From: Escherichia phage vB_EcoM_PHB05
Sequence record: NC_052652.1
Reading direction: 5' to 3' (one strand)
DNA: 64,000 nt
Below the pieces are notes generated by a model. It did not search any database and was not told the DNA's origin. It saw nothing but the letters and a program-made list of their open reading frames with translations. Below, one piece after another: positions 24,054 through 64,000 of the stretch. Made by a program: the position numbers and the translations under genes. How positions within the stretch are numbered: the first letter of the stretch is position 1; every line of letters begins with the position of its first letter.

Positions 24054-24117
24054 ACTTGCCTCCTATTTTGTTAAACGAACTTTTATTGTAACACAGAAGA
24101 GGCTGTTTTGCAAGTGG

Positions 24118-24138
24118 AGGGGGATAATCCCCCCTCTT
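24118..24138 (-). terminator. Terminator-like hairpin (GAGGGGGG ATAAT CCCCCCTC)
   Basis: 8-bp perfect G/C stem in the 93-nt gap between genes. Confidence 0.45.
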
Positions 24139-24146
24139 AGACTCTG

Positions 24147-30405: not shown

Positions 30406-31383
30406 TTAAGCAACAGCCTGGTCTTCTTTTTCAGGGAAGATTAAACTTGCAATAACACCCAGCCCCAGAGTACCTAACACAATATACATACTGATCGTCG
30501 GATCAATGTGTGCTGGCAGGAAACTCACTTTTGCGTGCAGAGTTTCTGCAAATGGGTGATACATCAGTTTTACACCCACAAATACCAGGACTACGATAAC
30601 TGCTTTCTCCAGATGAACCAAATATTTCAGTGCAACACTAAGGACAAAGAACAGAGCACGTAGACCTAAAATTGCACACAGCATTGAAGAAAATACAAGC
30701 AGAGGTTCTTGTGTCACTGCAATTACTGCTGGAACAGAATCTACTGCAAAGATTACGTCAACCATTTCCATTACAAACACACAAACCAATGCAGGAGTTG
30801 CTACACGAACACCATTTTTGATTGTGAAGAACTTCTCACCATCCATCTGATCAGATACAGGGAACAGCTTACGAACAATGCGAGTAGCCCAGTGTTTAGA
30901 GTAATCAACTTCTGCGTCATTATCTCCAGCGAATACCATTTTAGCTGCACAGAAAAGGATGATCGCACCGAAGAAGATATTAACATACCAGCCCAAACTC
31001 AACAAGTAAGTGCCTACTGCTACAAACACACCTCGGAAGACAATCGCACCTGCAATACCCCAAAGTAGAATCTTGTGCTGCAAGTGTGTGCTTTTAATAC
31101 CAAAACTTGCGAATACTGCCACAAATACTACTAAGTTATCTACAGAAAGAGATTTCTCCAACACATACCCACTCAAGAACAAGCTCGCAAAATCAGCACC
31201 GTGTTGGAAGTATACAAAACCATAGTAGGCTAATGATACCCCAATCCAGAAAATTGACCAGCCAATTGCAGATTTAAATGAAATTTCTTTGTTTTCTCTG
31301 TGTCCAAAGAAATCAATACAAATCGACAAGACTAAAATACCCACTAAAACAACCACATCAATAATTGGGAAACCCAGTTGCAT
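30406..31383 (-). CDS. terC: TerC-family integral membrane protein, 325 aa
   Basis: Multiple TM helices and hallmark motif LEKSLSVDNLVVFVAVFASFG of the TerC/Alx family. Confidence 0.7.
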   Translation of the reverse strand: MQLGFPIIDVVVLVGILVLSICIDFFGHRENKEISFKSAIGWSIFWIGVSLAYYGFVYFQHGADFASLFLSGYVLEKSLSVDNLVVFVAVFASFGIKSTHLQHKILLWGIAGAIVFRGVFVAVGTYLLSLGWYVNIFFGAIILFCAAKMVFAGDNDAEVDYSKHWATRIVRKLFPVSDQMDGEKFFTIKNGVRVATPALVCVFVMEMVDVIFAVDSVPAVIAVTQEPLLVFSSMLCAILGLRALFFVLSVALKYLVHLEKAVIVVLVFVGVKLMYHPFAETLHAKVSFLPAHIDPTISMYIVLGTLGLGVIASLIFPEKEDQAVA

Positions 31384-31401
31384 TCTTTTCTCCTCTTTAA
31401 T

Positions 31402-31420
31402 GCGGAGGACAATCCTCCGC
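31402..31420 (-). terminator. Hairpin (GCGGAGGA CAAT CCTCCGC) upstream of the TerC-like gene, possible terminator of the preceding transcript
   Basis: 7-bp stem in the 77-nt intergenic gap. Confidence 0.35.
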
Positions 31421-31460
31421 TCTATGTCGTATACTATAAACTGTTTTTAAAGAAAGTCAA

Positions 31461-52863: not shown

Positions 52864-53415
52864 ATGCGGATTACTGATAAGTATGTGTTCTTCTTCTCGG
52901 CAAAAGATGAATTTAGCAACTGGTATCTATCATCTTTTATTGAACCTTTAGCACCCAAGTATAATAATTCTATTACAAGTTCTGTTGAATTTACTTGTGT
53001 GGAACAATATATGATGTGGAGAAAAGCATGTTTGTTTTATGATTACAGTATTGCATCTTCTATTTTAACCGGAGATCTAAGATATACAGGAGAAAAAGAA
53101 CAAGCATATTATAAACGACTAGGCAGATTAGTTAAAGATTATGATGAAGATACCTGGGCTTCTTTACGGGAGAAGATTGTCAAGCGTGGTTTGTATCTTA
53201 AATACACACAAAATGAAGATCTCAAAAATAAACTTATCGCTTACGCAGATAAGGAGTTCGTAGAGGCAAGCCCCTATGATTCTATTTATGGTATCAAAAT
53301 GGGGATGTGGGATCGGGACGTGGAAAATAAGGATTGTTGGAAAGGACAAAATCTTTTAGGAAAATGGCATACAGACCTTGCTGTTTATCTAAAATCACAA
53401 TCTGATATTTCCTGA
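52864..53415 (+). CDS. NADAR-domain protein (YbiA-like), 183 aa
   Basis: Motif FFFSAKDEFSNWYLSSF ... FTCVEQYMMWRKACLFYD matches the NADAR/DUF1768 signature (FF..SNW...F.S.EQ.mM..KA..F.D). Confidence 0.6.
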   Translation: MRITDKYVFFFSAKDEFSNWYLSSFIEPLAPKYNNSITSSVEFTCVEQYMMWRKACLFYDYSIASSILTGDLRYTGEKEQAYYKRLGRLVKDYDEDTWASLREKIVKRGLYLKYTQNEDLKNKLIAYADKEFVEASPYDSIYGIKMGMWDRDVENKDCWKGQNLLGKWHTDLAVYLKSQSDIS

Positions 53416-53975: not shown

Positions 53976-54228
53976 ACGCGCAGGGGCGGTGTTTGTCTCG
54001 CGCTCCCGTGTCCCCTCGCCATACAATAAGAATAGCATAACCAACAACAAAAGCAAGCGATTATTTTTATCTTTACATTTCTTTACAAATTTATTTTGGA
54101 CGAGCTACCGGCGATCAACCTTCCAACCAGTGCCCCCTGGTATGTTAGCCCCGCCTTTACGCCGTGGGGGTGGCGTTTCCTCTTCTGTATGTAAAACAGT
54201 ATAAGCCCGATCCCTGGGCTTGTCAAGA

Positions 54229-54516: not shown

Positions 54517-54575
54517 TGCGCCCTGGTTGGCGCGGTAGAAAGATAATAGCCGTTTCCTTTATAGATAGCAAGCAA
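54517..54575 (-). promoter_or_regulatory. Leftward early promoter (TTGCTA -17- TATTAT) plus leader stem-loop (GCGCC AACCAG GGCGC)
   Basis: Read on the - strand; mirrors the + strand cassette architecture. Confidence 0.45.
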
Positions 54576-54605
54576 AAAAGAAATGAAAAAAAGATTAAAA
54601 AAATG

Positions 54606-54658
54606 GTTGACGTTCCTCACCTGGTAGCGTAGTATTCATCTTGTCGAGGGGGCAATAG
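54606..54658 (+). promoter_or_regulatory. Rightward early promoter (TTGACG -17- TAGTAT) plus leader hairpin (GGCA ATAG TGCC)
   Basis: Divergent from the previous promoter; followed by RBS and ATG at 54689. Confidence 0.5.
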
Positions 54659-54688
54659 TGCCGCTCATAACAGAAGAGAGAAATAATC

Positions 54689-54961
54689 ATGGCATCATAT
54701 AGCGCATCAATGATCGTAATGGGTATCACTGGTAAACCTATGCGCGGTGGCGGATCTTTCGCTAATATTAATATTGATGGGCGTTTATCCCTGGATGCAG
54801 CGATCACAGTGGCACGGGAAACATTTAAAAAAGAATGTAATTTCAATAAACAAGATTATCTCGGTTTCGCTATTGAAAAAACCGCGCGCTTTGTGGATTA
54901 TAAAAGCCCGAAAATGATTGATACTACACTAAAAGCGCAAGATGTAGCGTTTTTGCTTTAA
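54689..54961 (+). CDS. Early small protein, 90 aa
   Basis: Track ORF with promoter and RBS. Confidence 0.45.
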   Translation: MASYSASMIVMGITGKPMRGGGSFANINIDGRLSLDAAITVARETFKKECNFNKQDYLGFAIEKTARFVDYKSPKMIDTTLKAQDVAFLL

Positions 54962-54964
54962 GGC

Positions 54965-55025
54965 TTGACACTGAAAAATATTTTGGTAATATATACCACA
55001 TAAGGCGGGGAAATGGTTTCCCGCC
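54965..55025 (+). promoter_or_regulatory. Early promoter (TTGACA -17- TAATAT) followed by conserved leader stem-loop GGCGGGGAAATGGTTTCCCGCC
   Basis: Exact -35 consensus, 17-bp spacer, stem-loop at about 55004..55025, then CAAAGAAAGGG RBS and ATG 55048. Confidence 0.6.
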
Positions 55026-55047
55026 AAATCAAAGAAAGGGTAATGCA

Positions 55048-55410
55048 ATGAGCAAGCAAATCAATACTATCATGTTTAATCTGGTATCTTTCCGCGATGA
55101 CGTGAAAAACCTTTCGCGTGATGCAGTGGATGCACGGATCGAAAGCTATCGCACACAGATCGCAACGTTACCGCTGAAACGTGATCAACATGCCGCTAAT
55201 ATGATGCTTGATGCTATGATTAAAAAGATGATTCAATGTGATCTTACCATGGCTTATGAATATGCTGGCGATCTCTTTGTAACATATAGCAAGCCCGTTC
55301 CAGGTATGAGCACCACGGAAGAATTGCATGCCTTAAATCTGCGACAAGATGCATGGGATAACATGCGCCGTGTTATGGTATGGGTAGAAAGCGGTAAAAT
55401 TTACGAATAA
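55048..55410 (+). CDS. Early small protein, 120 aa
   Basis: Track ORF with cassette upstream. Confidence 0.45.
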   Translation: MSKQINTIMFNLVSFRDDVKNLSRDAVDARIESYRTQIATLPLKRDQHAANMMLDAMIKKMIQCDLTMAYEYAGDLFVTYSKPVPGMSTTEELHALNLRQDAWDNMRRVMVWVESGKIYE

Positions 55411-55416
55411 AAACGG

Positions 55417-55471
55417 TTGACATTGCACTAAAACCTGATAAGCTATCTTAAAGCGGGAATAGTTCCCGCTT
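55417..55471 (+). promoter_or_regulatory. Promoter-like TTGACA plus stem-loop AAGCGGGAATAGTTCCCGCTT
   Basis: -35 exact; -10 weak (TAAGCT); hairpin variant with compensatory changes. Confidence 0.4.
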
Positions 55472-55488
55472 ACATAGGATAAAACTTT

Positions 55489-55635
55489 ATGAAACAATAT
55501 GTAATGAGTATTCACACCAAAAACGGCGCTACTGTTACGACTCCGGCACGGTTTGCACTTGTAAACCGTTGCAAGAGACTAAAACGAGAGTTAAAAAATA
55601 ACCGTGCAACGGGCTTTAAACGCTGGGGAGGATAA
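55489..55635 (+). CDS. Small basic peptide (48 aa), not in ORF track
   Basis: ATG follows the stem-loop and AGGAT RBS; translation MKQYVMSIHTKNGATVTTPARFALVNRCKRLKRELKNNRATGFKRWGG. Confidence 0.3.
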   Translation: MKQYVMSIHTKNGATVTTPARFALVNRCKRLKRELKNNRATGFKRWGG

Positions 55636-55637
55636 TC

Positions 55638-55898
55638 TTGTTTTTTCTAAAAGTTTTTGATAATGTGATCGCTTTTGAACATGCTACAACGTTCGACCTG
55701 GCGAGATACGCTATCAGGTTTAAAGATAATGTTTATCCCCGTGCTGGCGGCGGTTACACTATTTTTAATCATCGCAACGCGCAACTGACTGATATAACTA
55801 ATCCAGGCCCTGGAGTGTATCGCATAGGCTGGCTACCGTCAAAAGACGCTGCAAGCATGTTTAAGGTATGTAAACTACTAACAGAAGAGGCGAACTAG
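55638..55898 (+). CDS. Early small protein, 86 aa (TTG start per ORF track)
   Basis: Track ORF; GGGGAGGA RBS 6 nt upstream of the TTG. Confidence 0.35.
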   Translation: MFFLKVFDNVIAFEHATTFDLARYAIRFKDNVYPRAGGGYTIFNHRNAQLTDITNPGPGVYRIGWLPSKDAASMFKVCKLLTEEAN

Positions 55899-55899
55899 C

Positions 55900-56445
55900 A
55901 TGGGGCGTGAATATGTGATCCAGTCCTGGGTAAAGCATGACGCAAATGATCCGCGCATAATACCAGATGACATGATCGATCACATGGTAGGGTATAGCGG
56001 GGAGCAGATAGGAAATCGAGCGGCAAAGAGCAACGGCAACACCAGGACGAGATCCGTTCGCCCTGGATGGCTGGCGAATGGTAATGCTGACATTGCAAGC
56101 GCCGCAGATCCAAGCGATGACGCTAAAAATAATCCCTTATACAGCATTGATCCGGCTTTTAAGGTGTTGGAAGAGTATCCCGCTAAATTAGCCGCACTAG
56201 ATAAGGCATACGCAGAAAAGCGCATGGCATGGACTGTATACAACACCGCTAAAATGGTGCTAGATGCAAAACTAATTAAAGCCCAGGAGAAGATCAATAA
56301 ACTTGTCACCATAGCGCAAGAGGAAGACCAGGAGGAAGAGGAAGAAATCATGCCTAACCTGGAAGAGGAAGAGATCCAGCCATACACGCCGACAGAAGAG
56401 GAAAAAATACAAGCCTTAAAAAATTATAAAAATTGTATTGTGTAA
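55900..56445 (+). CDS. Early protein with strongly acidic C-terminal tail, 181 aa
   Basis: C-terminus QEEDQEEEEEIMPNLEEEEIQPYTPTEEEKI; coiled-coil middle region. Confidence 0.45.
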   Translation: MGREYVIQSWVKHDANDPRIIPDDMIDHMVGYSGEQIGNRAAKSNGNTRTRSVRPGWLANGNADIASAADPSDDAKNNPLYSIDPAFKVLEEYPAKLAALDKAYAEKRMAWTVYNTAKMVLDAKLIKAQEKINKLVTIAQEEDQEEEEEIMPNLEEEEIQPYTPTEEEKIQALKNYKNCIV

Positions 56446-56448
56446 GGC

Positions 56449-56507
56449 TTGACATATGCAAACAAGCCCCGTAATATGTACCACATAGAGCGGGGCAACC
56501 CCCCTCA
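56449..56507 (+). promoter_or_regulatory. Early promoter (TTGACA -17- TAATAT) plus stem-loop variant (GAGCGGGG CAA CCCCCCTC)
   Basis: Cassette copy immediately upstream of the consensus promoter at 56528. Confidence 0.45.
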
Positions 56508-56527
56508 AAGGTGAAATAAAAAATCAC

Positions 56528-56555
56528 TTGACAACTGAAATCAGTAAGCTATAAT
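56528..56555 (+). promoter_or_regulatory. Consensus sigma70 promoter (TTGACA -16- TATAAT), no leader hairpin
   Basis: Both hexamers are exact consensus; about 37 nt upstream of ATG 56593. Confidence 0.6.
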
Positions 56556-56592
56556 GCTTATATAAATTGAAGCGTTACTAAGGAATAAAATC

Positions 56593-56958
56593 ATGGCTAA
56601 AAATATTAATGTTTCCGCTTATGCTACCATGGCTAACACGGCTAAAATTGAACTGTCCAGCATTGAAGCGGTGCATATTAGCGCCCGTCGCTGGTTTCAA
56701 AAATCTTATGGTAACACTTATTTCTCTTTGATGGTTGACGTTGAGATCGGCGGTAAACTGATTGAAGTCGTTAACGTTCCGTTTCAATATGGTTATGGTG
56801 ATCATTTTGATACCGTTGCCCTAGAAGAGTTTAGCAAGGTTATCAACCTGGAAGGTAAAGACTTTTCAAATTATGCTTACCTTTCCAGTTTTTGCCGTGA
56901 CAATGGGATCGCTGTATACAGCCATGCAAGCGATGTTAAACGTAAAAAAGATCTATAA
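56593..56958 (+). CDS. Early small protein, 121 aa
   Basis: Track ORF with AAGGAAT RBS. Confidence 0.45.
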   Translation: MAKNINVSAYATMANTAKIELSSIEAVHISARRWFQKSYGNTYFSLMVDVEIGGKLIEVVNVPFQYGYGDHFDTVALEEFSKVINLEGKDFSNYAYLSSFCRDNGIAVYSHASDVKRKKDL

Positions 56959-57047
56959 AAAGCATTGACAGCACGAATAAAAAGTGTAAAATGTTTCATA
57001 TCAGGACGGGGAACGGTTTCCCCCTCCTAACAAGGAGAGAAATAAAA

Positions 57048-57230
57048 ATGGCTAAATGCACTATCTGTAAGAAAGAAATAGTATTAGTTCCAAGTGCCCG
57101 TGAACGTGCCGCTAAGTTCGGTGGCAAACCGTCAGACTATACGAAAATGTTTACTACCCATGCAGCTTGCCAGGTAGCAAAACGTTCACAAGAAAGCGTA
57201 GAATTAATGCGTAAACTTTCCAAAAAATAA
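57048..57230 (+). CDS. Early small protein with CxxC...HxxC (possible zinc-binding), 60 aa
   Basis: Start at Met-20 of track ORF 56991..57230, just after stem-loop and AGGAGAG RBS; CTICKK ... HAACQ. Confidence 0.4.
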   Translation: MAKCTICKKEIVLVPSARERAAKFGGKPSDYTKMFTTHAACQVAKRSQESVELMRKLSKK

Positions 57231-57315
57231 TATTGACAAAGTATTTTATTATTATATAATGGTTTACATCGAGAGCGGGAATAGTTCCCGCCTCACTGAA
57301 AAAGAGATTAACATC

Positions 57316-57555
57316 ATGGCTAAATCTAAAATGTACAACGGTCACAAAAATAAAACTCATTGGAATGTAAGCCTTTGGATTAATAACGATCCAGGTTTTT
57401 ATAATATGGCAAAAGAATTTATAGCCGTGAACAACAATAAAGATAACGCCGCGCGTGAAATGATGTCATTACTTAACGAAATGGGCCAAAATACTACGCC
57501 AGATGGCTATAAATTCAGTAAAACCAGTATCCGCGCCGCTATGGTAGGAATGTAA
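57316..57555 (+). CDS. Early small protein, 79 aa
   Basis: Start at Met-20 of track ORF 57259..57555, after the stem-loop; RBS AAAGAGA. Confidence 0.4.
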   Translation: MAKSKMYNGHKNKTHWNVSLWINNDPGFYNMAKEFIAVNNNKDNAAREMMSLLNEMGQNTTPDGYKFSKTSIRAAMVGM

Positions 57556-57564
57556 TAAAAGCAG

Positions 57565-57624
57565 TTGACAACGTTTTTTAATCTGGTATAGTTTATCACA
57601 TAGGGCGGGAAATGGTTTCCCGCC
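57565..57624 (+). promoter_or_regulatory. Early promoter (TTGACA -16- TATAGT) plus stem-loop GGCGGGAAATGGTTTCCCGCC
   Basis: Cassette copy; ATG at 57647. Confidence 0.55.
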
Positions 57625-57646
57625 AAATGAAAGAAAGGTTATCATT

Positions 57647-57874
57647 ATGGCTATCGTTATTGTTCGCGTATCCGGCACGGTTGGAATCTCCCAGGTAGTA
57701 GCAGTTATCACCGAGAAGAAAGGGGATGATCTTCACTCCTCCTTGAATAGCTGGGCGGTCGCTAATTTCGGGCAATGGTCGAGCGTTGAGTATATCGAAT
57801 CCTACCAGGTGCCAACGATTAGCCTAACCGATCTGAATGTTGATCGCTTGTTGTGCCTGGATGGATTAAACTAA
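57647..57874 (+). CDS. Early small protein, 75 aa
   Basis: Track ORF with cassette. Confidence 0.45.
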   Translation: MAIVIVRVSGTVGISQVVAVITEKKGDDLHSSLNSWAVANFGQWSSVEYIESYQVPTISLTDLNVDRLLCLDGLN

Positions 57875-57961
57875 AAATAATCTTGACAAGATAACTAAAA
57901 TCAGTAAAATGTAATGCATAGGGCGGCAATAGTGCCGCTCATAGTAAGAGAGATTATCAAA

Positions 57962-58177
57962 ATGGCTAATATCCGCACACTGTTAAAAAATGCAAGTCAA
58001 GTTTTATTTTCAGATGACGAGTATTTCAACAAAGACATTACAGGCGTGAAAAATTTAAAAGACGTGAAGGATGTTATCGGTATCCGTGGATCTTTACGTA
58101 AAGGTGACATATACGGTAACAAGGTGCAATATAAACTATCAAAAGATTATGATTTTACTTTGACAATTATTTCATAA
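57962..58177 (+). CDS. Early small protein, 71 aa
   Basis: Start at Met-17 of track ORF 57914..58177, after promoter TTGACA (57883) and stem-loop GCGGCA ATAG TGCCGC. Confidence 0.4.
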   Translation: MANIRTLLKNASQVLFSDDEYFNKDITGVKNLKDVKDVIGIRGSLRKGDIYGNKVQYKLSKDYDFTLTIIS

Positions 58178-58266
58178 AACTACTTGCAAACCTGGTAAAA
58201 TAAAGTAAACTATATTCATTAAGGCGGTGGAATAGCCCACCGCCTAACAAAGAGAAGAGGAAACAT

Positions 58267-58437
58267 CATGATCACTTTCGCTACCCGTGAAGCCGCTCGC
58301 AACGTTGCACGTAAAGTTAACGCCGCCAACCTAGGCGCTACGCTTAAAGCCCCGGTGAAAGATGAATCAGGAAAATGGATCTTTCCTGGTCTGCGTCACG
58401 CTGATAAGCTGGGGACATTAACGTTAAAAAATAAATA
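58267..58437 (+). CDS. Early small basic protein (56 aa), not in ORF track
   Basis: Follows stem-loop GGCGGTGG AATAGC CCACCGCC and RBS AGAGGAAAC; frame checked start to stop. Confidence 0.35.
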
Positions 58438-58569
58438 ATATCCGCTTGACAGTAGCATCATTTATAAGTAAAGTAACAACAACGGCGGGAAAATTATTGG
58501 TTATATATTGCAAGCATGATCATAACTTTAGCAAAATATCATAAAGTAGCGTAATTAAGAGGAAGAAAC

Positions 58570-58707
58570 ATGAACGCATCACAGCAGATCGAAAAATTCA
58601 ACCGCAGCAAGGCGCGTAAAGATTGGAACGAAGAGATCACCAAAAAAGGTGACAAGCGGAACAAAACAAAGAGAGATCGCAGCACAAAAAGATACTGGAA
58701 CGAATAA
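58570..58707 (+). CDS. Small highly basic peptide (45 aa), not in ORF track
   Basis: RBS AAGAGGAAG then ATG; K/R-rich translation MNASQQIEKFNRSKARKDWNEEITKKGDKRNKTKRDRSTKRYWNE. Confidence 0.3.
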   Translation: MNASQQIEKFNRSKARKDWNEEITKKGDKRNKTKRDRSTKRYWNE

Positions 58708-58710
58708 CAA

Positions 58711-58737
58711 AAAAAGGGCGCAATAAGCGCCCTTTTA
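58711..58737 (+). terminator. Rho-independent terminator (AAAGGGCGC AATAA GCGCCCTTTT)
   Basis: 9-bp stem plus T-run. Confidence 0.6.
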
Positions 58738-58826
58738 GCTTATATAGAGGCTTGTTACCCATAGGCAATGGTAACGCCAGGGCAAGCCTATAAATCAACG
58801 TTAGACGGCTTTACAGGAGCTTTAAA

Positions 58827-59009
58827 ATGAGATTAGAAGAAATAAGCAAGGCACTAGCCCAGGGGCAAAGGTTAAACGCCCGTTATCGTGATCAATATGG
58901 CTTTATAACTAGCGGCGTGATCCTGGGGATTGAAGACAATAAGATTTTTATTGACACGTTGAAAAACGTTGTATATAGTGACAATATAATCTCAATAAAA
59001 CATATATGA
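58827..59009 (+). CDS. Early small protein, 60 aa
   Basis: Track ORF; RBS ACAGGAG. Confidence 0.4.
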   Translation: MRLEEISKALAQGQRLNARYRDQYGFITSGVILGIEDNKIFIDTLKNVVYSDNIISIKHI

Positions 59010-59017
59010 GGCAAGAA

Positions 59018-59419
59018 ATGAAAAAATTATTGATCGCTGGTTTAATCTCTTTTGGCATGGTTGGAACATCTAGCGCGGCGATATCCTCCACAGTAGCAGA
59101 ATTAAGCGCCGTTGATGCAATGGAAAACGTCATGATCATTAATAATGCGATCCCCGATGAAATCATGGAGGATTCACACATGATCGCTTATGGTGCTGTT
59201 ACACAATTAACGGCAAAAATAGATAAATCTATTGTTAATGGCTTAAATGAAGATGTACCATGTGAAATTATTACCAGTGTGCTAACGACTCAAAATTTTA
59301 CGCCGTGGCTAAAAAGTATTCAAAAGGTACACAGCACCGCCGCAGATCGTAGCAATGAAAAACTAGTGTCAGCACTTGCAACGTATACCCTAGCAAAATG
59401 TACCGAGATAAAAGGTTGA
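59018..59419 (+). CDS. Secreted/periplasmic small protein with signal peptide, 133 aa
   Basis: MKKLLIAGLISFGMVGTSSAA signal peptide; start at Met-5 of the track ORF with GAGG RBS. Confidence 0.45.
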   Translation: MKKLLIAGLISFGMVGTSSAAISSTVAELSAVDAMENVMIINNAIPDEIMEDSHMIAYGAVTQLTAKIDKSIVNGLNEDVPCEIITSVLTTQNFTPWLKSIQKVHSTAADRSNEKLVSALATYTLAKCTEIKG

Positions 59420-59466
59420 CAATATAGAAAGCACGTTATAAGATACACACAACAAAGGAGAACTAC

Positions 59467-59769
59467 ATGAACGGCATAGCTAAAACGTTTTTTCTTTTTT
59501 CTGGTGTAAATGATCCATCAATAAAAGTCGATAGTGTAAAAGAAAACAATACTATCACCGCTAAATTGTTTCAAGATGAAACAAATAACGTGCTAATCAT
59601 TAATCTTAAAGAAATAACGAAAGGTTATTATACTATTGCTTACCATGCGATCTATCATGCGGGTACTAGTGAGGAAGTGCAAACAAGCAACAACGAAAGC
59701 GCGGCGCTACCTGGTGATCTGGTGCTGGGCGTTATCAGTTCAATTGTCAATGATTTTTTTAAGGAGTAA
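59467..59769 (+). CDS. Early small protein, 100 aa
   Basis: Track ORF; promoter TTGACA at 59416 and RBS AAAGGAG. Confidence 0.45.
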   Translation: MNGIAKTFFLFSGVNDPSIKVDSVKENNTITAKLFQDETNNVLIINLKEITKGYYTIAYHAIYHAGTSEEVQTSNNESAALPGDLVLGVISSIVNDFFKE

Positions 59770-59773
59770 AACC

Positions 59774-59869
59774 ATGCCCTATTTACATTTATTTTTCGGT
59801 ATCTTATTGACAGGATCTTTTTTCTTCTGTATGCTTGTTTCTATTGTAAACCACGTTTTAAGACATTAA
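59774..59869 (+). CDS. Small hydrophobic peptide (31 aa)
   Basis: RBS AAGGAG 8 nt upstream; MPYLHLFFGILLTGSFFFCMLVSIVNHVLRH; part of track ORF 59636..59869. Confidence 0.3.
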   Translation: MPYLHLFFGILLTGSFFFCMLVSIVNHVLRH

Positions 59870-60098
59870 GGAAACAGCATGAAAATTATTCCCGTACAGT
59901 ATAGCGTAATAAATCCAGCATATGAGGAAGGAAGGAAAACAAGCATGGCTTTATGTTGTATTACTACTATAGCCATGTTATTATATATTGTGTTTTAATA
60001 GGTTTTATAGTTGTACGCTTTAAAGGCTTGACAATTTTTTGTTATGCTTTAAAATATATCTTGAAAACGGCAAAGGCCGCAAACAAAAGGGTAAAATT

Positions 60099-60422
60099 AT
60101 GAAATCTGTGATCGGTGTTTATTTGGATAACTCTGATTTTTTCTATCATCGTGCGCGTTTCCTTGATGCGATTGAAATGATAGAATCAGGCTTTAAAGAG
60201 TATCGCCTTGCACATGATGACCTGGAAGCATTACAGGGCAATAGTGTTTTTACATTGCAAGCTAAAGCACTATGTAAAAGCCGGATCGACATTGCGAGCA
60301 AAAAGATAGAACGCGGCATGTCCTGGTTACGCACCGCAGAAATTAACATGGGGCAATGGTACGGCGAAAACTTAGAAAATAAACTCACTTTTGTAAATGT
60401 AGAAAATATTAAAGATTATTGA
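60099..60422 (+). CDS. Early small protein, 107 aa
   Basis: Start at Met-21 of track ORF 60039..60422; promoter TTGACA at 60028. Confidence 0.4.
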   Translation: MKSVIGVYLDNSDFFYHRARFLDAIEMIESGFKEYRLAHDDLEALQGNSVFTLQAKALCKSRIDIASKKIERGMSWLRTAEINMGQWYGENLENKLTFVNVENIKDY

Positions 60423-60485
60423 TTGACAGCACACCTGATAAGTAATATATTGTATCTCATAGAGCGGGGAAATGGTTTCCCCGCC
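60423..60485 (+). promoter_or_regulatory. Early promoter (TTGACA -17- TATATT) plus stem-loop GCGGGGAAATGGTTTCCCCGC
   Basis: Cassette copy; ATG at 60505. Confidence 0.55.
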
Positions 60486-60504
60486 TTAACAGAAGAGATA
60501 AGAT

Positions 60505-60789
60505 ATGAAGATCACAAAAGCACTTTCCAACTATGCAGCACGTCGCGGCTTATGCTTATCCGTTGAAAACTTAGAGAAAGAAGATTTTTTGTGCTTTTGG
60601 GAGCTTGAGAATGATAATGAGTGGATCTTCTCTTATTCTATCTGCAAAGATCAAAATGGTTGCTTGTTAACCTGGCGCGGTAATATCTATTTGCCGGAAG
60701 AAATAAAACAAGAATTACCAGGCACGATCATGACTGAGAAACAGCTTAAGGAAGTGATCAATTTTGTAGGGCAAAACATTAAAAAATAA
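60505..60789 (+). CDS. Early small protein, 94 aa
   Basis: Track ORF with cassette. Confidence 0.45.
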   Translation: MKITKALSNYAARRGLCLSVENLEKEDFLCFWELENDNEWIFSYSICKDQNGCLLTWRGNIYLPEEIKQELPGTIMTEKQLKEVINFVGQNIKK

Positions 60790-60873
60790 TTTGACAGTAG
60801 GCAAACAACGTAGTAAAGTTTACCACATAGGGCGGGAAATGGTTTCCCGCTCACAGCAGAAGAGAAACAAATC

Positions 60874-61044
60874 ATGATCCCGACTATGTTTTACGTATCG
60901 CGCAAAGGTCACAATATTTTTTGGTCTGAAGATTTAAATGAAGCCATGACGTTTGCCCGTGATCGTGTTGCTATCGGTGGCGTTAATATTACCGTAACCG
61001 ATGAAAACGGCATTGAATACTATAACGGCGACGATGAAGAGTAA
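60874..61044 (+). CDS. Early small acidic protein (56 aa), not in ORF track
   Basis: Follows promoter TTGACA (60791) and stem-loop GGCGGGAAATGGTTTCCCGC; frame checked. Confidence 0.35.
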   Translation: MIPTMFYVSRKGHNIFWSEDLNEAMTFARDRVAIGGVNITVTDENGIEYYNGDDEE

Positions 61045-61092
61045 TTAATAAGGCGGGGGGAGTATTCCCCGCCATCAATAAAGAGGTAAATC

Positions 61093-61401
61093 ATGAAAAT
61101 ATCTTTGGACGTTGCAATCAAGGCCATCGAATCCGGTTACACCCTGGTAAAAGATGATAAGGCTAAAATAGTGCATCATGTTAACAAGGAAACAGGCGAA
61201 AGCATGATCACATATAAAGCCGCCTATTTTCTCCAATCAGTAGCAGATCCGCGCGTACAACGCCAGGTTACGGCGGCTATTGCTAAAAAATTATGTGCTT
61301 TACAGGGTACAAGTTTTAACGAGATCCCGCCGTGTTTTGACTGGGCGAGCTTGAAAAATAGTTTGACAATATGCGGTTATCTGGTAATATATACCACATA
61401 A
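61093..61401 (+). CDS. Early small protein, 102 aa
   Basis: Track ORF; preceded by stem-loop GGCGGGG GGAGTA TTCCCCGCC and AGAGG RBS. Confidence 0.45.
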   Translation: MKISLDVAIKAIESGYTLVKDDKAKIVHHVNKETGESMITYKAAYFLQSVADPRVQRQVTAAIAKKLCALQGTSFNEIPPCFDWASLKNSLTICGYLVIYTT

Positions 61402-61423
61402 GGCGGGGAAATGGTTTCCCGCC
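61364..61423 (+). promoter_or_regulatory. Early promoter (TTGACA -17- TAATAT) plus stem-loop GGCGGGGAAATGGTTTCCCGCC; promoter lies inside the 3' end of the preceding ORF
   Basis: Cassette copy nearly identical to the one at 54965. Confidence 0.55.
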
Positions 61424-61441
61424 AGAATAGAGAGAACTAAA

Positions 61442-61546
61442 ATGATTATTCTTACCATGATGTGCGCGGCGGTTATTATTCCTTTGATAACGCTTATTGT
61501 TTCTGAGATCGATGATCTTCTCTTTGAAAGAAGTTTAAAAAAGTAA
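61442..61546 (+). CDS. Small hydrophobic peptide (34 aa), not in ORF track
   Basis: MIILTMMCAAVIIPLITLIVSEIDDLLFERSLKK; follows cassette and RBS AGAGAGAA. Confidence 0.3.
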   Translation: MIILTMMCAAVIIPLITLIVSEIDDLLFERSLKK

Positions 61547-61626
61547 TTGACAACGGCTAATAAGCTGATAATATGTATCACATAGGGCGGGGCAATAAGG
61601 CAACGCCCACTAATGAGGGTAGCATC

Positions 61627-61731
61627 ATGTTAGAGAAAATTTTCACGGTTGTAATAGTGGGCCTGGCGTTATCGGTTGGAGTGATTGCAACTATGGCTAA
61701 CATGATCCTATCTTCCCACGGTATCGGCTAA
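61627..61731 (+). CDS. Small hydrophobic peptide (34 aa), not in ORF track
   Basis: MLEKIFTVVIVGLALSVGVIATMANMILSSHGIG; follows promoter TTGACA (61547) and stem-loop. Confidence 0.3.
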   Translation: MLEKIFTVVIVGLALSVGVIATMANMILSSHGIG

Positions 61732-61745
61732 AAGAGAAACACAAC

Positions 61746-62132
61746 ATGAAAACAGAAATCATTATTGAAATCATCAACGGTTATAAAGAAGCCTTTATTT
61801 TTGCTGAATCAGCAAGGGATCATGAAGGTAATTTTATTGATAACTTAGACGATTATGATTTTTCAGATCAAGCCCATCAACGGATCATTAATGACGTAGC
61901 GGCTTATTGTGATGCCAATGATGCTGCTATCTCTGAGGCAATGAGCGACGGCGCAACAGCAAACCAGATCGGGAATGATTTACATTTTACCCGTAACGGT
62001 CACGGCGTAGGTTTTTGGGATCGCCCTGAAATATACACTACTAACACCGCCAACCGCCTAACAAATGCAGCTAGATTAATGCCATCGGTGCATGCTTACA
62101 TTGGTGAAGATAATTTGATTTATATTGAATAA
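61746..62132 (+). CDS. Early small acidic protein, 128 aa
   Basis: Track ORF. Confidence 0.45.
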   Translation: MKTEIIIEIINGYKEAFIFAESARDHEGNFIDNLDDYDFSDQAHQRIINDVAAYCDANDAAISEAMSDGATANQIGNDLHFTRNGHGVGFWDRPEIYTTNTANRLTNAARLMPSVHAYIGEDNLIYIE

Positions 62133-62138
62133 AAAGTG

Positions 62139-62197
62139 TTGACACCGATCCCCAATATGGTATTATTTACCACGTAGGCGGGAAATGGTTTCCCGCC
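62139..62197 (+). promoter_or_regulatory. Early promoter (TTGACA -17- TATTAT) plus stem-loop GGCGGGAAATGGTTTCCCGCC
   Basis: Cassette copy; ATG at 62222. Confidence 0.55.
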
Positions 62198-62221
62198 AGG
62201 TAATCAAAAAAGGTAAACATT

Positions 62222-62611
62222 ATGCGCAACCTGGTTTCTGTTTCTAACGTTGAAAAATTTCAATCCTTGCAGGGTATCATTAACAACGTAGCGCCTTTTT
62301 TAGTCAATGGCTTGATTGCAAAGATGAAAAATAAACATCATGCGGCATGGTCTGCTTATTGCTTTGATAATGATGAAAAAGCGGCTGAAATGATGTTAAA
62401 TATGCTTTTGGATAGTGTAGAATCATCTTTACCGGAAAACATCGCAGAAGAGATCACCTATCGTTATAATATGGCGATCACTTACCAGGAGGTTGCGCAA
62501 TTCAACATGATGGATGATGACGAACAACAGGATCAAGAAATGTTCTGGGAGTATGCTGATCGTCAATCGGCTTTTGATGAAAAGTTAGCGATGTATTATA
62601 ATGAATATTAA
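62222..62611 (+). CDS. Early small acidic protein, 129 aa
   Basis: Track ORF with cassette. Confidence 0.45.
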   Translation: MRNLVSVSNVEKFQSLQGIINNVAPFLVNGLIAKMKNKHHAAWSAYCFDNDEKAAEMMLNMLLDSVESSLPENIAEEITYRYNMAITYQEVAQFNMMDDDEQQDQEMFWEYADRQSAFDEKLAMYYNEY

Positions 62612-62622
62612 TACACGGTAAA

Positions 62623-62653
62623 AGAAAGGGGCGCACTAAGCGCCCTTTTTTGT
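62623..62653 (+). terminator. Rho-independent terminator (AAAGGGGCGC ACTAA GCGCCCTTTTTTG)
   Basis: Perfect GC stem and T6 run closing the early block. Confidence 0.65.
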
Positions 62654-63189
62654 ATTCTTTTTTCACGATGGAAACAACACGTAAAAAATAGGCGTAAAGG
62701 TGGCGTAAAACCATCTAAAACCGACTGTAACCGCTTAAACAGGGTAACAATGAGTAATCACCTTACCAGGATGAAAAAGCTGTTATAAAGCTATTTAGAG
62801 CGTTTAAAGCACACAGGAAATAATTTGCTTTTTATCTTGCCTTTTATTCTGCTTTTGATTATTATTATGGAACGGGCGGCACCTGGGGACAGGGGAAGAT
62901 AATCACCGGAAGATCCCGCTATATATTGATAGCTTCTACCTATTAAACAACAAAACATCAAAGAAATAAACTATCAAATCTTTTTACCTAAATAAAGATG
63001 ATAACTTTTACCTATCAAAAACGTTCACCGAAAAAAGTGAATAGATCGCGGTATTGAGCTAATCAAGGAGCAGATGAATAACCATACCATGAAGATCATA
63101 AGGCGCTTACAGCGTGTTTTAGACCGCTTATTTTTAATTTCTTCATGCAACTATCTGGCAAAAACAGCCTTTTTCTTGTCTTTCCTCTT

Positions 63190-63260
63190 AAATAATAATC
63201 ATTCTCATTTATAGCTGATTATTTATGCAATAAACTGAATAATATAATAATGATAATCAT
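63190..63260. promoter_or_regulatory. Second Fur-box-like element (AATAATAATCATTCTCATTT ... AATGATAATCATTCTT)
   Basis: Same TAATCATTCTCATT core as at 53862; lies on the far side of the early block. Confidence 0.4.
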
Positions 63261-63616
63261 TCTTAACTTAAGGCCATCTAACCTATAAAATAATAAGCTA
63301 TCTAACTAAATTAAAGCTAATTATCTCACCTTTATTTATAACTTACTGTTATTATCTCATTGATAACCTTATATTAAACAACAATAACTAATATAAATCA
63401 TTACCAAACTAAATATAATCTATCTAACCTTTAAAACTATAACTATAATCTATCGAATTGTTGCACAAAGTAACTATTAAATTGTTAGTAACATTACTAA
63501 ATAATTAATATCCTATCTATTTATGATCTAATCTTTACCTTACTATCTATTACCTAAATAATCATTTCATACAATAATTATAACAAGAAATATAATTAGC
63601 AAGCGTATCATTAGCA

Positions 63617-63790
63617 GCCTATGCCGGACACATAGGCGGCTAATAATAACGCAACTACACATCCCACATAATAACCATCACCGATAGTTATTATTTGTGC
63701 TTATGTAGCTTGCAACAACTGCAAGCGCAACAATATACATGGTATATTGTATCCCTTACATTGTTGCGGTGCGTTATTATTAGCTAATGT
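63617..63790. repeat. Nested inverted repeats in AT-rich non-coding DNA
   Basis: Outer 13-bp arms CTAATAATAACGC / GCGTTATTATTAG, inner 9-bp arms CGCAACAAT / ATTGTTGCG, central palindrome CAATATACATGGTATATTG; plus hairpin GCCTATG-N7-CATAGGC. Confidence 0.5.
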
Positions 63791-64000
63791 TTGGAACATT
63801 GGCTATAATATAAGCTATCCAATAATAAACATAGGGAAAATGACACTGATGATCATAATGCGCCACCTTCCAGGGGGCGCTATGTGAACACAAAGAAACC
63901 TTTCTTGTCAAGAAAAATATTACCATTATTGCGCAAAATTATTTATATATGAATAGATGGTTTTTCATACTATTGCCCCCATATAGCTTATCATTTGTTG

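What the first reader, a model, noticed from the sequence alone, without database searches (positions are those of the whole stretch)
54517..62197. Family of repeated early promoter plus 5' stem-loop cassettes with compensatory base changes
At least 15 intergenic sites in the early block share the same architecture: TTGACA, a 16-17 bp spacer, a TAtaaT-like -10, then within about 10-30 nt a GC-rich hairpin (canonical GGCGGGAAATGGTTTCCCGCC, often preceded by CCACATAGG), then a purine-rich RBS and ATG. Variant copies keep the pairing through compensatory changes (GCGGCA..TGCCGC, GGCGGTGG..CCACCGCC, GCGGGAA..TTCCCGC), which argues for a conserved RNA structure rather than plain repetition. The hairpin would sit at the extreme 5' end of each early transcript, consistent with an mRNA-stabilising 5' structure or a binding site for a phage or host regulator. 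Repetition of the whole cassette could also drive recombinational shuffling of early genes, as described for promoter-early stem-loop elements in T4-type phages.
Basis: seen in the sequence. Interest (0 to 1): 0.75.

Follow-up and report, generated by a model that had tools for sequence, protein, structure and literature searches.

The report
Repeated early promoter plus 5'-hairpin cassettes
A phi92-like E. coli phage drives most of its small early genes from copies of one portable unit (strong host-type promoter, a GC hairpin predicted to sit at the very start of the mRNA, ribosome site); related and unrelated coliphages have the same unit, and gene gains and losses join inside it, so it is a variant of the promoter/stem-loop cassettes known from T4-type phages, not a new kind of element.

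Summary
The window comes from a Justusliebigvirus/Phapecoctavirus (phi92-like) coliphage. Between 54.6 and 62.2 kb the + strand carries 17 perfect TTGACA-N16/17-TAnnnT promoters (0.15 expected by chance) and none on the – strand. Fourteen promoters are followed 10-15 nt after the -10 by a GC hairpin. One more hairpin has no promoter and one is cut in its loop, making 16 sites. One further cassette lies on the – strand at 31.4 kb.

From promoter geometry, transcripts should start at a conserved "CA" and leave 0-5 unpaired nt before the hairpin (up to 8 in one copy). The hairpin ends 18-24 nt before the ATG, and the ribosome site is unpaired in the predicted folds. Stems differ between copies by double, pair-preserving changes. 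The hairpins lack T-runs and match no Rfam family.

The same layout with other stems occurs in rV5-like, Citrobacter and jumbo PBECO4 phages. Indel junctions between relatives fall inside the cassettes.

Best reading (inferred, not shown): a portable early-expression cassette whose 5'-terminal hairpin shields the mRNA from RppH/RNase E. The repeats also act as recombination sites.

The closest known kind is the PeSL of T4-type phages. There the stem-loop sits in the promoter and acts as a terminator, so this is a new variant.

The parts
54607..54691 (+). Cassette 1. Weak -35 (TTGACG), degenerate hairpin 54646-54666, RBS, ATG 54689.
   Evidence: The hairpin folds at only about -8 kcal/mol. An indel junction against Paula and ESCO9 lies inside it.
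54965..55050 (+). Cassette 2. TTGACA-N16-TAATAT, hairpin 55004-55025, ATG 55048.
55417..55491 (+). Cassette 3. TTGACA-N16-TAAGCT, hairpin 55451-55471. Here the ACATAGG motif follows the hairpin. ATG 55489.
56449..56527 (+). Cassette 4. Promoter plus bulged hairpin 56488-56506 with no ORF of its own, followed directly by the hairpin-less promoter at 56528.
56965..57050 (+). Cassette 5. Hairpin 57004-57027 (core 57008-57023), ATG 57048. The gene is shared with jumbo phage PBECO4.
57233..57318 (+). Cassette 6. Consensus promoter, hairpin 57271-57294, ATG 57316.
57565..57649 (+). Cassette 7, the canonical copy. CACATAGG plus GGCGGGAAAtggTTTCCCGCC at 57604-57624, ATG 57647.
   Evidence: (41 bits).
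57883..57964 (+). Cassette 8. Hairpin GGGCGGCAatagTGCCGCTC at 57921-57940 with one G.U pair, ATG 57962.
58185..58270 (+). Cassette 9. Weaker promoter (TTGCAA-N16-TAAACT), hairpin AGGCGGTGGaatagcCCACCGCCT at 58222-58245, ATG 58268.
58446..58572 (+). Cassette 10. The hairpin is truncated in its loop (58484-58492, GGCGGGAAA followed by unrelated sequence). A 322-bp deletion relative to five relatives has its junction here. ATG 58570.
   Evidence: Paula has the intact hairpin at L001 5832-5852.
60423..60507 (+). Cassette 11. Hairpin 60464-60484, ATG 60505.
60791..60876 (+). Cassette 12. Hairpin 60830-60852 with one G.U pair, ATG 60874.
61045..61095 (+). Hairpin 61052-61073 with no promoter of its own, 7 nt after the upstream stop codon and 19 nt before ATG 61093.
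61363..61444 (+). Cassette 14. Hairpin 61402-61423, ATG 61442 (34-aa ORF).
   Evidence: Junctions lie at 61369-61371.
61547..61629 (+). Cassette 15. Hairpin 61585-61608 with an internal insertion, ATG 61627. The segment is shared with rV5-like phages.
62139..62224 (+). Cassette 16. Canonical hairpin 62177-62197, ATG 62222.
31381..31460 (-). Cassette outside the block. TTGACT-N16-TATAGT, ACATAGA, hairpin GCGGAGGAttgTCCTCCGC (31402-31420), ATG 31383 of a TerC-family membrane protein.
   Evidence: (E 8e-9).
56528..56595 (+). Consensus promoter without a hairpin; 31-nt leader.
58951..60101 (+). Four promoters (58951, 59416, 59807, 60028) with no hairpin or only a trivial one and 15-36 nt leaders. 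The products look like membrane or secreted proteins.
58712..58736 (.). Canonical two-way intrinsic terminator (A-run, GC stem, T-run) that splits the block in two. Listed for contrast with the cassette hairpins.
62623..62651 (.). Canonical two-way intrinsic terminator at the end of the block.

Best explanation
The block holds about 20 copies of a portable early-gene expression cassette. Each copy has these parts in order:
- an A-rich upstream tract;
- a near-consensus sigma-70 promoter read by unmodified host RNA polymerase;
- a start at a conserved C-A;
- a GC hairpin of 8-10 bp;
- about 20 nt of unstructured A/G-rich leader carrying the ribosome site;
- an ATG, often ATGGCT.

The hairpin lies in the gene's own transcript, a few nucleotides from its triphosphate end. 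The most likely role is that of a 5'-terminal stabiliser. E. coli RppH and the 5'-end-dependent entry of RNase E both need a single-stranded 5' end, so pairing that end should lengthen the life of these short early mRNAs. The hairpin stops just outside the ribosome's footprint, so initiation should be unhindered and insulated from whatever lies upstream. In read-through transcripts the same hairpin becomes internal. There, and at the promoter-less copy, it could block 3' exonucleases or RNase E scanning.

The roughly 100-bp cassettes are also repeated homology, and genes are gained, lost and exchanged through them, even between phage families.

Shown: the repeats, their geometry, the pair-preserving variation, the lack of terminator features, the junction positions, and the occurrence in other phage families. 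Inferred: the start sites, RNA folding in vivo, the stabilising effect, and the recombination mechanism.
For: Enrichment and polarity. There are 17 strong promoters on the + strand against 0.15 expected, and none on the - strand.

Geometry. The hairpin starts 10-15 nt after the -10. The predicted leader is 44-48 nt with 0-5 unpaired 5' nt (8 in one copy), and the hairpin ends 18-24 nt before the ATG. The ribosome site and AUG are unpaired in 13 of the 14 minimum-energy folds (in the 57004-27 copy a second small hairpin covers the ribosome site). Promoters without a hairpin have shorter leaders of 15-36 nt.

Structure is kept while sequence varies. 7 of 9 pairs change on both sides, 94-96% of cells pair, no shuffle of 500 reaches the observed covariation score, and slid registers collapse.

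The same architecture occurs with unrelated stems at the same distance from the -10:
- FV3 (rV5-like): GGGGCAA/TTGCCCC, GGGGAG/CTCCCC;
- PBECO4 (jumbo): GGGGAGAA/TTCTCCCC;
- Citrobacter Tr1.

Sense-strand G.U pairs are the commonest non-Watson-Crick position (11, against 3 A.C-type).

Not terminators. There is no T-run, and the tool's terminator scan flags only 58712-36 and 62623-51 as canonical on the + strand.

Established knowledge. [quoted passage not shown]

Recombination. 14 of 20 distinct indel endpoints against five relatives fall inside cassettes, which cover 22% of the block (p about 6e-6), with 6-18 nt junction overlaps. One hairpin is cut exactly in its loop. A gene about 96% identical to one in PBECO4 is bounded by the divergent hairpins.
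Against: - No start site, RNA half-life or in vivo structure has been measured for this phage or any relative that I could find.
- The hairpin is optional. Five promoters in this block lack it, as do most early promoters of Pectobacterium phage PcCB7V.
- Hairpins without a promoter exist: 61052-73 here and several in FV3. The 5' end therefore cannot be the only site of action.
- With 3-5 unpaired nt, some copies sit at the edge of what, from my recollection of Emory 1992, still protects.
- The covariation counts rest on paralogous, related copies and on alignments chosen for, or fitted to, the hairpin, so the shuffle results overstate significance.
- Uncompensated C.A mismatches also occur (ESCO13 8390 and 12454).
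- The junction enrichment is partly forced. Indels that respect genes must end in intergenic DNA, and most intergenic DNA here is cassette.
Confidence: 0.5

Rival explanations
1. The hairpins are attenuators or terminators for transcription arriving from upstream cassettes. This is the role proposed and reporter-tested for PeSL stem-loops in RB49/phi1. It would limit the pile-up of read-through from some 20 tandem strong promoters.
For: The PeSL paper reports that a GC stem-loop without an obvious T-run cut lacZ expression as strongly as rrnB T1 (PMC2839356). The RB49 stem-loops I read also lack T-runs. The block has only two canonical terminators for about 25 genes. Promoter-less hairpins sit just after stop codons (61052-73 here; FV3). 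Depositors of Paula and ASO2A annotated some of these hairpins as terminators.
Against: Here the hairpin lies downstream of its own start, so an efficient terminator would also kill its own gene. In RB49 it lies inside the promoter, upstream of the start. No T-run follows on the + strand. The Paula annotations are on the strand opposite the genes. The tight distance to the -10 in three phage groups has no explanation under this model.
Confidence: 0.15
2. The hairpin, with its AAUAG/AAUGG apex and CAUAG flank, is the binding or cleavage site of a protein that switches the whole early class on or off together. Candidates are a phage translational repressor, an endoribonuclease, an antiterminator, a host factor, or a dimeric DNA repressor using the palindrome at +4 to +27 as an operator.
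For: The apical AAT(A/G)G and the 5' CATAG are more conserved than the stem within Stephanstirmvirinae (A17 and A18 nearly invariant). ATAG recurs in the flank, the loop and the 3' flank of some copies. Position +4 to +27 is typical of an operator. A shared tag on about 15 early mRNAs would allow coordinated shut-off.
Against: The stems vary freely, and the loops differ in FV3 and PBECO4 (ACA, AAAG, ACGTC, ACATC). One protein is unlikely to read them all. G.U pairs break the DNA symmetry. CATAG persists in PcCB7V promoters that have no hairpin, so it belongs to the start region and not to a hairpin-recognition motif. No Rfam family matches, boxB/nut-type elements included, even at E up to 1. 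Every block protein tested falls in a family of unknown function, which neither helps nor excludes this model.
Confidence: 0.15
3. The hairpin has no role in expression. It is a palindromic part of a repeat that spreads and persists because it promotes recombination (for example hairpin or cruciform-prone DNA as a break or strand-exchange site), or simply hitch-hikes with a successful promoter cassette.
For: Junctions lie in hairpin loops (58485-92, 54647-53, 57015), as was mapped for RB49 mini-circles. The cassettes are clearly homologous copies. The hairpin is dispensable at several promoters.
Against: Neutral palindromes decay, yet pairing is kept through double changes and stems are re-invented with other sequences at the same position in other families. 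The spacing to both the -10 and the ATG is held within a few nt. This points to selection on the transcript.
Confidence: 0.1

Closest known systems
PeSL (promoter-early stem-loop) cassettes of T4-type phages RB49/phi1, PST/T4 and nt-1/KVP40 (Arbiol et al. 2010, PMC2839356; Comeau et al. 2014, PMC4122927)
   Same: Both are repeated units of about 100 bp made of an AT-rich tract, a near-consensus sigma-70 early promoter, a G-run/C-run stem-loop, and a Shine-Dalgarno site with ATG. Both are concentrated in blocks of small ORFs of unknown function. In both, indel junctions between close relatives fall inside the motif, including inside the loop.
   Different: In RB49 the stem-loop sits in the promoter spacer, over the -10 or -35, upstream of the -35, or just before the start. 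There it acts only on transcripts from upstream, and it is described as a terminator. Here it is always 10-15 nt after the -10, inside the gene's own leader. The host phages are Stephanstirmvirinae, Vequintavirinae and Asteriusvirus, not T4-like. Mini-circles were not tested.
5'-terminal stabiliser stem-loops of E. coli mRNAs (ompA and papA 5' UTRs; Emory, Bouvet & Belasco 1992; reviewed in PMC3997798)
   Same: A stable hairpin lies within a few nucleotides of the 5' end, followed by an accessible ribosome site. The mechanism is denial of a single-stranded 5' end to RppH and RNase E.
   Different: Those are single, experimentally tested leaders of cellular genes. This is a multi-copy phage cassette with a much shorter leader, and no half-life data exist.
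5' stem-loop of T7 class III (phi10) transcripts retained in pET vectors (from my own knowledge, not checked here)
   Same: A phage mRNA begins with a G-rich arm that pairs with a downstream C-rich arm (GGGAGA...UCUCCC-like), just ahead of a strong ribosome site.
   Different: That transcript is made by T7 RNA polymerase from late promoters. There is no sigma-70 promoter and it is not a dispersed recombination substrate.
Intrinsic (rho-independent) terminators
   Same: A GC-rich stem of 7-10 bp with a short loop, located between genes.
   Different: No T-run follows the cassette hairpins. The phage's real terminators (58712-36, 62623-51, and several in 1-54 kb) have flanking A- and T-runs.

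Membership tests
PeSL (Arbiol 2010) | Near-consensus sigma-70 promoter with an AT-rich upstream tract, repeated many times | tested here: met
   17 perfect TTGACA promoters against 0.15 expected. A-rich tracts lie upstream of the -35.
PeSL (Arbiol 2010) | Adjacent G-run/C-run stem-loop as part of the same repeat | tested here: met
PeSL (Arbiol 2010) | Stem-loop placed within or around the promoter: upstream of the -35, over the -35, in the spacer, over the -10, or just before the start | tested here: not met
   Here the stem begins 10-15 nt after the -10, i.e. at about +1 to +9 of the gene's own transcript. The RB49 copies I read lie in the spacer or over the -10. The definition was read.
PeSL (Arbiol 2010) | Stem-loop works as a transcription terminator or attenuator | not testable with these tools
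   There is no T-run and the terminator scan does not flag these hairpins on the + strand. The RB49 stem-loops also lack T-runs, so sequence alone cannot settle this.
PeSL (Arbiol 2010) | Located in variable regions next to ORFans, with indel junctions between close relatives inside the motif | tested here: met
   All ten block proteins tested fall in PHROG families of unknown function. 14 of 20 endpoints lie inside cassettes.
PeSL (Arbiol 2010) | Formation of encapsidated mini-circles by recombination between flanking motifs | not testable with these tools
   This needs inverse PCR on phage DNA.
5'-terminal mRNA stabiliser hairpin (ompA type) | Hairpin within a few unpaired nucleotides of the transcript's 5' end | tested here: inconclusive
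   0-5 unpaired nt (8 in one copy) if the start is the conserved purine 7-8 nt after the -10. The start sites are predicted, not mapped.
5'-terminal mRNA stabiliser hairpin (ompA type) | Lengthens mRNA half-life in an RppH/RNase E-dependent way | not testable with these tools
   This needs rifampicin-chase experiments in wild-type and mutant hosts.
Intrinsic terminator | GC stem-loop followed at once by a T-run | tested here: not met
   On the + strand only 58712-36 and 62623-51 qualify as canonical terminators. One cassette hairpin (61073-61052) qualifies weakly on the - strand.
Any curated RNA family (Rfam 15), including nut/boxB-type and leader elements | Match to a covariance model | tested here: not met
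   No match at the gathering threshold in the whole window. At E up to 1 in 53.9-64 kb the only match overlaps the terminator at 58695-58741 and is far below its gathering score.

The most novel reading that the evidence does not exclude
The 5'-hairpin cassette is a horizontally mobile module shared by unrelated coliphage families (phi92-like, rV5-like, jumbo PBECO4-like). It marks phage early mRNAs as 'self'. By hiding the 5' end it exempts them from the accelerated RppH/RNase E decay that these phages may themselves impose on host mRNAs. As background, rV5 encodes a homologue of Srd, and T4 Srd is, from my recollection, an RNase E activator. On this reading a small RNA structure serves both as an mRNA-level immunity tag and as the crossover point for inter-family gene exchange.
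Probability: 0.15. Interest if true: 0.75.

Novelty: new variant of a known kind. Interest (0 to 1): 0.45.

Why it matters
If the inferred mechanism holds, it explains how large virulent coliphages obtain quick, strong expression of dozens of tiny early genes using only host machinery. It extends the PeSL idea of modular shuffling beyond T4-type phages, and here it operates between phage families: one gene about 96% identical to a jumbo-phage gene is bounded by the hairpins. It also supplies a compact natural part about 100 bp long (promoter, 5' stabiliser, ribosome site) with many sequence-diverse, structure-equivalent variants, which could be useful for phage engineering and synthetic biology. 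For annotation, it shows that these hairpins are being mislabelled as terminators, on the wrong strand, in deposited genomes.

Tried and rejected
- Rfam at the gathering threshold (whole window) and at E up to 1 (53.9-64 kb): nothing relevant.
- Terminator reading: rejected on sequence grounds, as there is no T-run and the hairpin lies downstream of its own start.
- Host origin or mimicry: no similar sequence in 5,426 complete E. coli genomes.
- DNA operator for one dimeric repressor: unlikely because the half-sites vary and G.T pairs break the symmetry.
- The MAFFT alignment of 67 leaders (A1) put the two arms in inconsistent registers and was not used for pair counts. A covariance model (R1) was built from 20 ungapped copies instead.
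- The G.U versus A.C strand test goes the expected way, but most G.U cases share one ancestral motif (GGGCGG/CCGCUC), so I treat it as weak support.
- 'G-rich arm first' as a strand marker: rejected, because a palindrome reads the same on both strands.
- Literature: no held paper prints the hairpin sequence or describes it in rV5, O177 phages or the jumbo phage CBB. The phi92 genome paper is not held, so prior description there cannot be excluded. Two broad paper searches returned only irrelevant hits.
- PHROGs on ten block proteins gave only families of unknown function, so no candidate partner protein emerged.
- The conserved - strand promoter at 54226 and its GC-rich downstream region fold no better than shuffles (z = +0.6).

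Full report
**Source of the window.** The 7.7-kb region is 95-97% identical to Escherichia phages EC.P2, Paula, ESCO9 and about 20 others. It has partial matches in 240 phage records, almost all Stephanstirmvirinae (Justusliebigvirus or Phapecoctavirus, the phi92/phAPEC8 group). The block consists of about 25 small + strand ORFs. Ten were tested against PHROGs and all fall in families of unknown function.

- The + strand of 54.5-62.3 kb holds 17 sites with a perfect TTGACA, a 16-17 nt spacer and a TAnnnT -10, several with a TG extension. Dinucleotide shuffles give a mean of 0.15 (maximum 3), and the - strand has none. Three weaker promoters lie at 54607, 55417 and 58185.
- Fourteen of these 20 promoters are followed by a GC hairpin that begins 10-15 nt after the -10.
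- One further hairpin (61052-73) has no promoter, and one (58484-92) is cut in its loop.
- The canonical 21-mer with up to 3 mismatches occurs five times on the + strand against none in shuffles.
- The intact hairpins fold at -13 to -19 kcal/mol with z-scores of -2 to -4.8. In 13 of the 14 minimum-energy folds the ribosome site and AUG are unpaired; in the 57004-27 copy a second small hairpin covers the ribosome site.
- A covariance model built from 20 copies finds 11 + strand copies in the block at E up to 0.01 and a twelfth at E 0.08. Outside the block it finds only two sites: a genuine cassette on the - strand at 31393-31429, and a different hairpin at 24108-24144.
- Five promoters (56528, 58951, 59416, 59807, 60028) have no hairpin or a trivial one, and their leaders are shorter.

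**Anatomy.** The parts, in order, are:
- an A-rich tract;
- the -35, the spacer and the -10;
- seven mostly A/T bases ending in C;
- a purine, almost always A, at the position where a sigma-70 promoter is expected to start (the 8th base after the -10), read as CA(+1)TAG;
- the hairpin;
- an A/G-rich stretch (AGAAGAGA or AAAGAAAGG);
- the ATG, five times as ATGGCT.

With that predicted start the leaders are 44-48 nt. The unpaired 5' end is 0-5 nt; one copy has 8, or 4 if its outer GGA/TCC pairs form. The hairpin ends 18-24 nt before the ATG. The start sites are inferred from promoter geometry only.

**Structure or mere repetition?**
- Copies differ by changes that keep the pairing: GGCGGGAAA/TTTCCCGCC, GCGGGGAAA/TTTCCCCGC, GGGCGGCA/TGCCGCTC, GGCGGTGG/CCACCGCC, GCGGAGGA/TCCTCCGC and GGGGAA/TTCCCC.
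- On the 20-sequence seed, 7 of 9 pairs change on both sides and 96% of cells pair. No shuffle of 500 reaches the observed covariation score, and slid registers fall to 41-64% paired.
- On the model-derived alignment of 113 distinct copies from eight sources, 94% of cells pair. 178 cells carry double changes against 64 in shuffles, and slid registers give 50-69%.
- These numbers overstate the case. The seed was picked for hairpins, the large alignment is fitted to the model and includes antisense matches, and the copies are related paralogues and orthologues.
- The stronger argument is comparative. rV5-like FV3 (GGGGCAA/TTGCCCC, GGGGAG/CTCCCC, GGGCA/TGCCC), jumbo phage PBECO4 (GGGGAGAA/TTCTCCCC, GGGGAA/TTCCCC) and Citrobacter phage Tr1 place hairpins with quite different stems at the same distance from equally strong promoters.
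- Uncompensated mismatches also exist, for example the C.A mismatches in ESCO13 8390 and 12454.
- G.U pairs in the sense orientation are the commonest non-Watson-Crick position (11, against 3 A.C-type). Most of them trace to one motif, so this is only mild support for a sense-strand RNA.

**What the hairpins are not.**
- They are not canonical terminators. None is followed by a T-run on the + strand. The scan flags only 58712-36 and 62623-51, which have the A-run/T-run form of this phage's real two-way terminators.
- The Paula record labels the hairpins 'terminator', but on the strand opposite the genes, which is most likely an artefact of automatic prediction.
- They match no Rfam family at the gathering threshold or at E up to 1.
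- They have no counterpart in 5,426 complete E. coli genomes.

**Most likely mechanism.**
- The hairpin is transcribed from its own promoter and lies within a few nucleotides of the predicted 5' end. Its spacing to both the -10 and the ATG is held within a few nucleotides in several phage groups.
- The best-supported reading is therefore a 5'-terminal stabiliser joined to an insulated ribosome site. RppH and the 5'-end-dependent route of RNase E both require a single-stranded 5' terminus, which is the accepted explanation for the protective effect of 5' stem-loops (review PMC3997798).
- The hairpin stops about 20 nt before the ATG, which from general knowledge is roughly the edge of the 30S footprint, so initiation should not be hindered.
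- Only two terminators serve about 25 genes. Many transcripts must therefore read through, and the hairpins then become internal. There, and at promoter-less copies such as 61052-73, they could act as barriers to exonucleases or to RNase E scanning.
- None of this has been measured. I put it at about 0.5.

**Rivals.**
- Attenuator of upstream transcription, the PeSL function (0.15). It is weakened because a terminator downstream of its own start would silence its own gene, and because there is no T-run. The PeSL authors did see strong reporter reduction from a T-run-less stem-loop, so it is not excluded.
- Protein-binding site (0.15). In its favour are the conserved apical AAT(A/G)G and the CATAG flank within Stephanstirmvirinae. 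Against it are the loop diversity in other families and the persistence of CATAG at hairpin-less PcCB7V promoters.
- Recombination-only or hitch-hiking repeat (0.1). Against it are the maintained pairing and the fixed spacing.

**Recombination.** Alignment of the block with Paula, ESCO9, PD06, muut and EC.P2 gives 13 distinct insertion, deletion or replacement events.
- Of 20 distinct endpoints, 14 lie inside cassettes (from the -35 to ATG+8). Cassettes cover 22% of the block, giving a binomial p of about 6e-6. With 20 nt of upstream A-tract added, 18 of 20 lie inside.
- Adjacent alignment pieces overlap by 6-18 nt at the junctions, as expected for exchange within shared sequence.
- Examples: a 322-bp deletion in this phage whose junction is the hairpin loop at 58485-92, where Paula keeps the intact hairpin; promoter-to-promoter deletions in muut (54614 to 55409, and 57908 to 58196); and a gene (57048-57230) present here but absent from Paula.
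- That gene is about 96% identical to PBECO4 gp245. The high-identity segment runs from the ribosome site through the next promoter to its start, and the hairpins on either side are divergent.
- Caveat: indels that spare genes must end between genes, and most intergenic DNA here is cassette. The enrichment is expected in part without any special mechanism.

**Comparison with what is known.**
- The closest known kind is the PeSL of T4-type phages (PMC2839356, PMC4122927). Shared features are the repeated promoter plus G/C stem-loop plus SD unit, enrichment next to ORFans, and junctions within the motif.
- The difference is position, and hence logic. I read the RB49 copies directly: the stem-loop lies in the -35/-10 spacer or over the -10. 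The paper's five classes all place it at or before the start, so it acts on upstream transcripts. Here it is in the gene's own leader.
- PeSLs are described only in T4-like myoviruses. I found no description of the present arrangement in the rV5, O177-phage or jumbo-phage CBB papers, and no held paper prints the sequence. The phi92 genome paper could not be read.
- I therefore rate this as a new variant of a known kind, of moderate interest.

Noticed in passing
window 62700-64000: After the block's terminator lies an AT-rich stretch of about 1.3 kb with no convincing ORF. It is full of short direct repeats (ATCTAACCTATAAAATAATAA in 3 copies, TAAATATAATCTATCTAA in 2) and inverted repeats, including a perfect 15-nt pair at 63639-53 / 63770-84. 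The rV5 paper shows a comparable 'non-coding' box. It could be an origin or a packaging region.
   Followed up: partly
window 24116-24137 (- strand): A GC hairpin without a T-run (GAGGGGGGAttaTCCCCCTCC) sits just after a stop codon and immediately upstream of a TTGCAA-N17-TACAAT promoter. This is the classic PeSL order (stem-loop before the promoter) and differs from the early-block cassettes.
   Followed up: partly
window 31460-30406 (- strand): The only cassette outside the early block drives a 325-aa TerC-family integral membrane protein (Pfam PF03741, E 7.5e-39) set among genes of another module. It looks like an independently expressed add-on gene.
   Followed up: partly
window 54198-54226 (- strand) and downstream to about 54050: A strong leftward promoter (TTGACA-N17-TATACT) is conserved in Paula, ESCO13, iGC_PHA_EC001 and WPEC4. 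It is followed by a GC-rich region with no obvious gene start. The region folds no better than shuffles (z = +0.6) and has no Rfam or tRNA match.
   Followed up: partly
window 56593, 57048, 57316, 57647, 57962: Five early genes start with ATGGCT (Met-Ala), three of them with ATGGCTAAA, and so do PBECO4 genes behind the same kind of cassette. Several indel junctions lie exactly there. The repeat therefore extends into the first codons.
   Followed up: partly
L006 (Escherichia phage WPEC4) 12631-14961, - strand: A different repeated promoter cassette occurs five times ahead of tiny ORFs: TTGACA-N17-TACAAT followed by GGGTGCTAGATAGAATTCAGGATTATGAAGGA, with no GC hairpin.
   Followed up: no
GenBank MG065639, MG065656, MG065689 and similar ('Campylobacter phage A150, C3, A110a'); MT119359 ('Enterococcus phage heks') 545-609: Records labelled as Campylobacter phages are about 96% identical to this E. 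coli phage block. A 39.7-kb Enterococcus phage record carries a 65-nt match to the cassette. These are probably host mislabelling or contamination.
   Followed up: no
window 51691-53415: Just upstream of the block are a CapR-homology/T5orf172 protein (390 aa) and a NADAR-domain protein (183 aa).
   Followed up: no
L008 (Pectobacterium phage PcCB7V) 700-8000: The early promoters of this Certrevirus keep the start-region motif GGCATAGACAAAC after a TTGACG-N18-TATAAT promoter, but only 2 of 14 carry the hairpin. The hairpin is therefore an optional add-on to an older promoter/leader design.
   Followed up: partly
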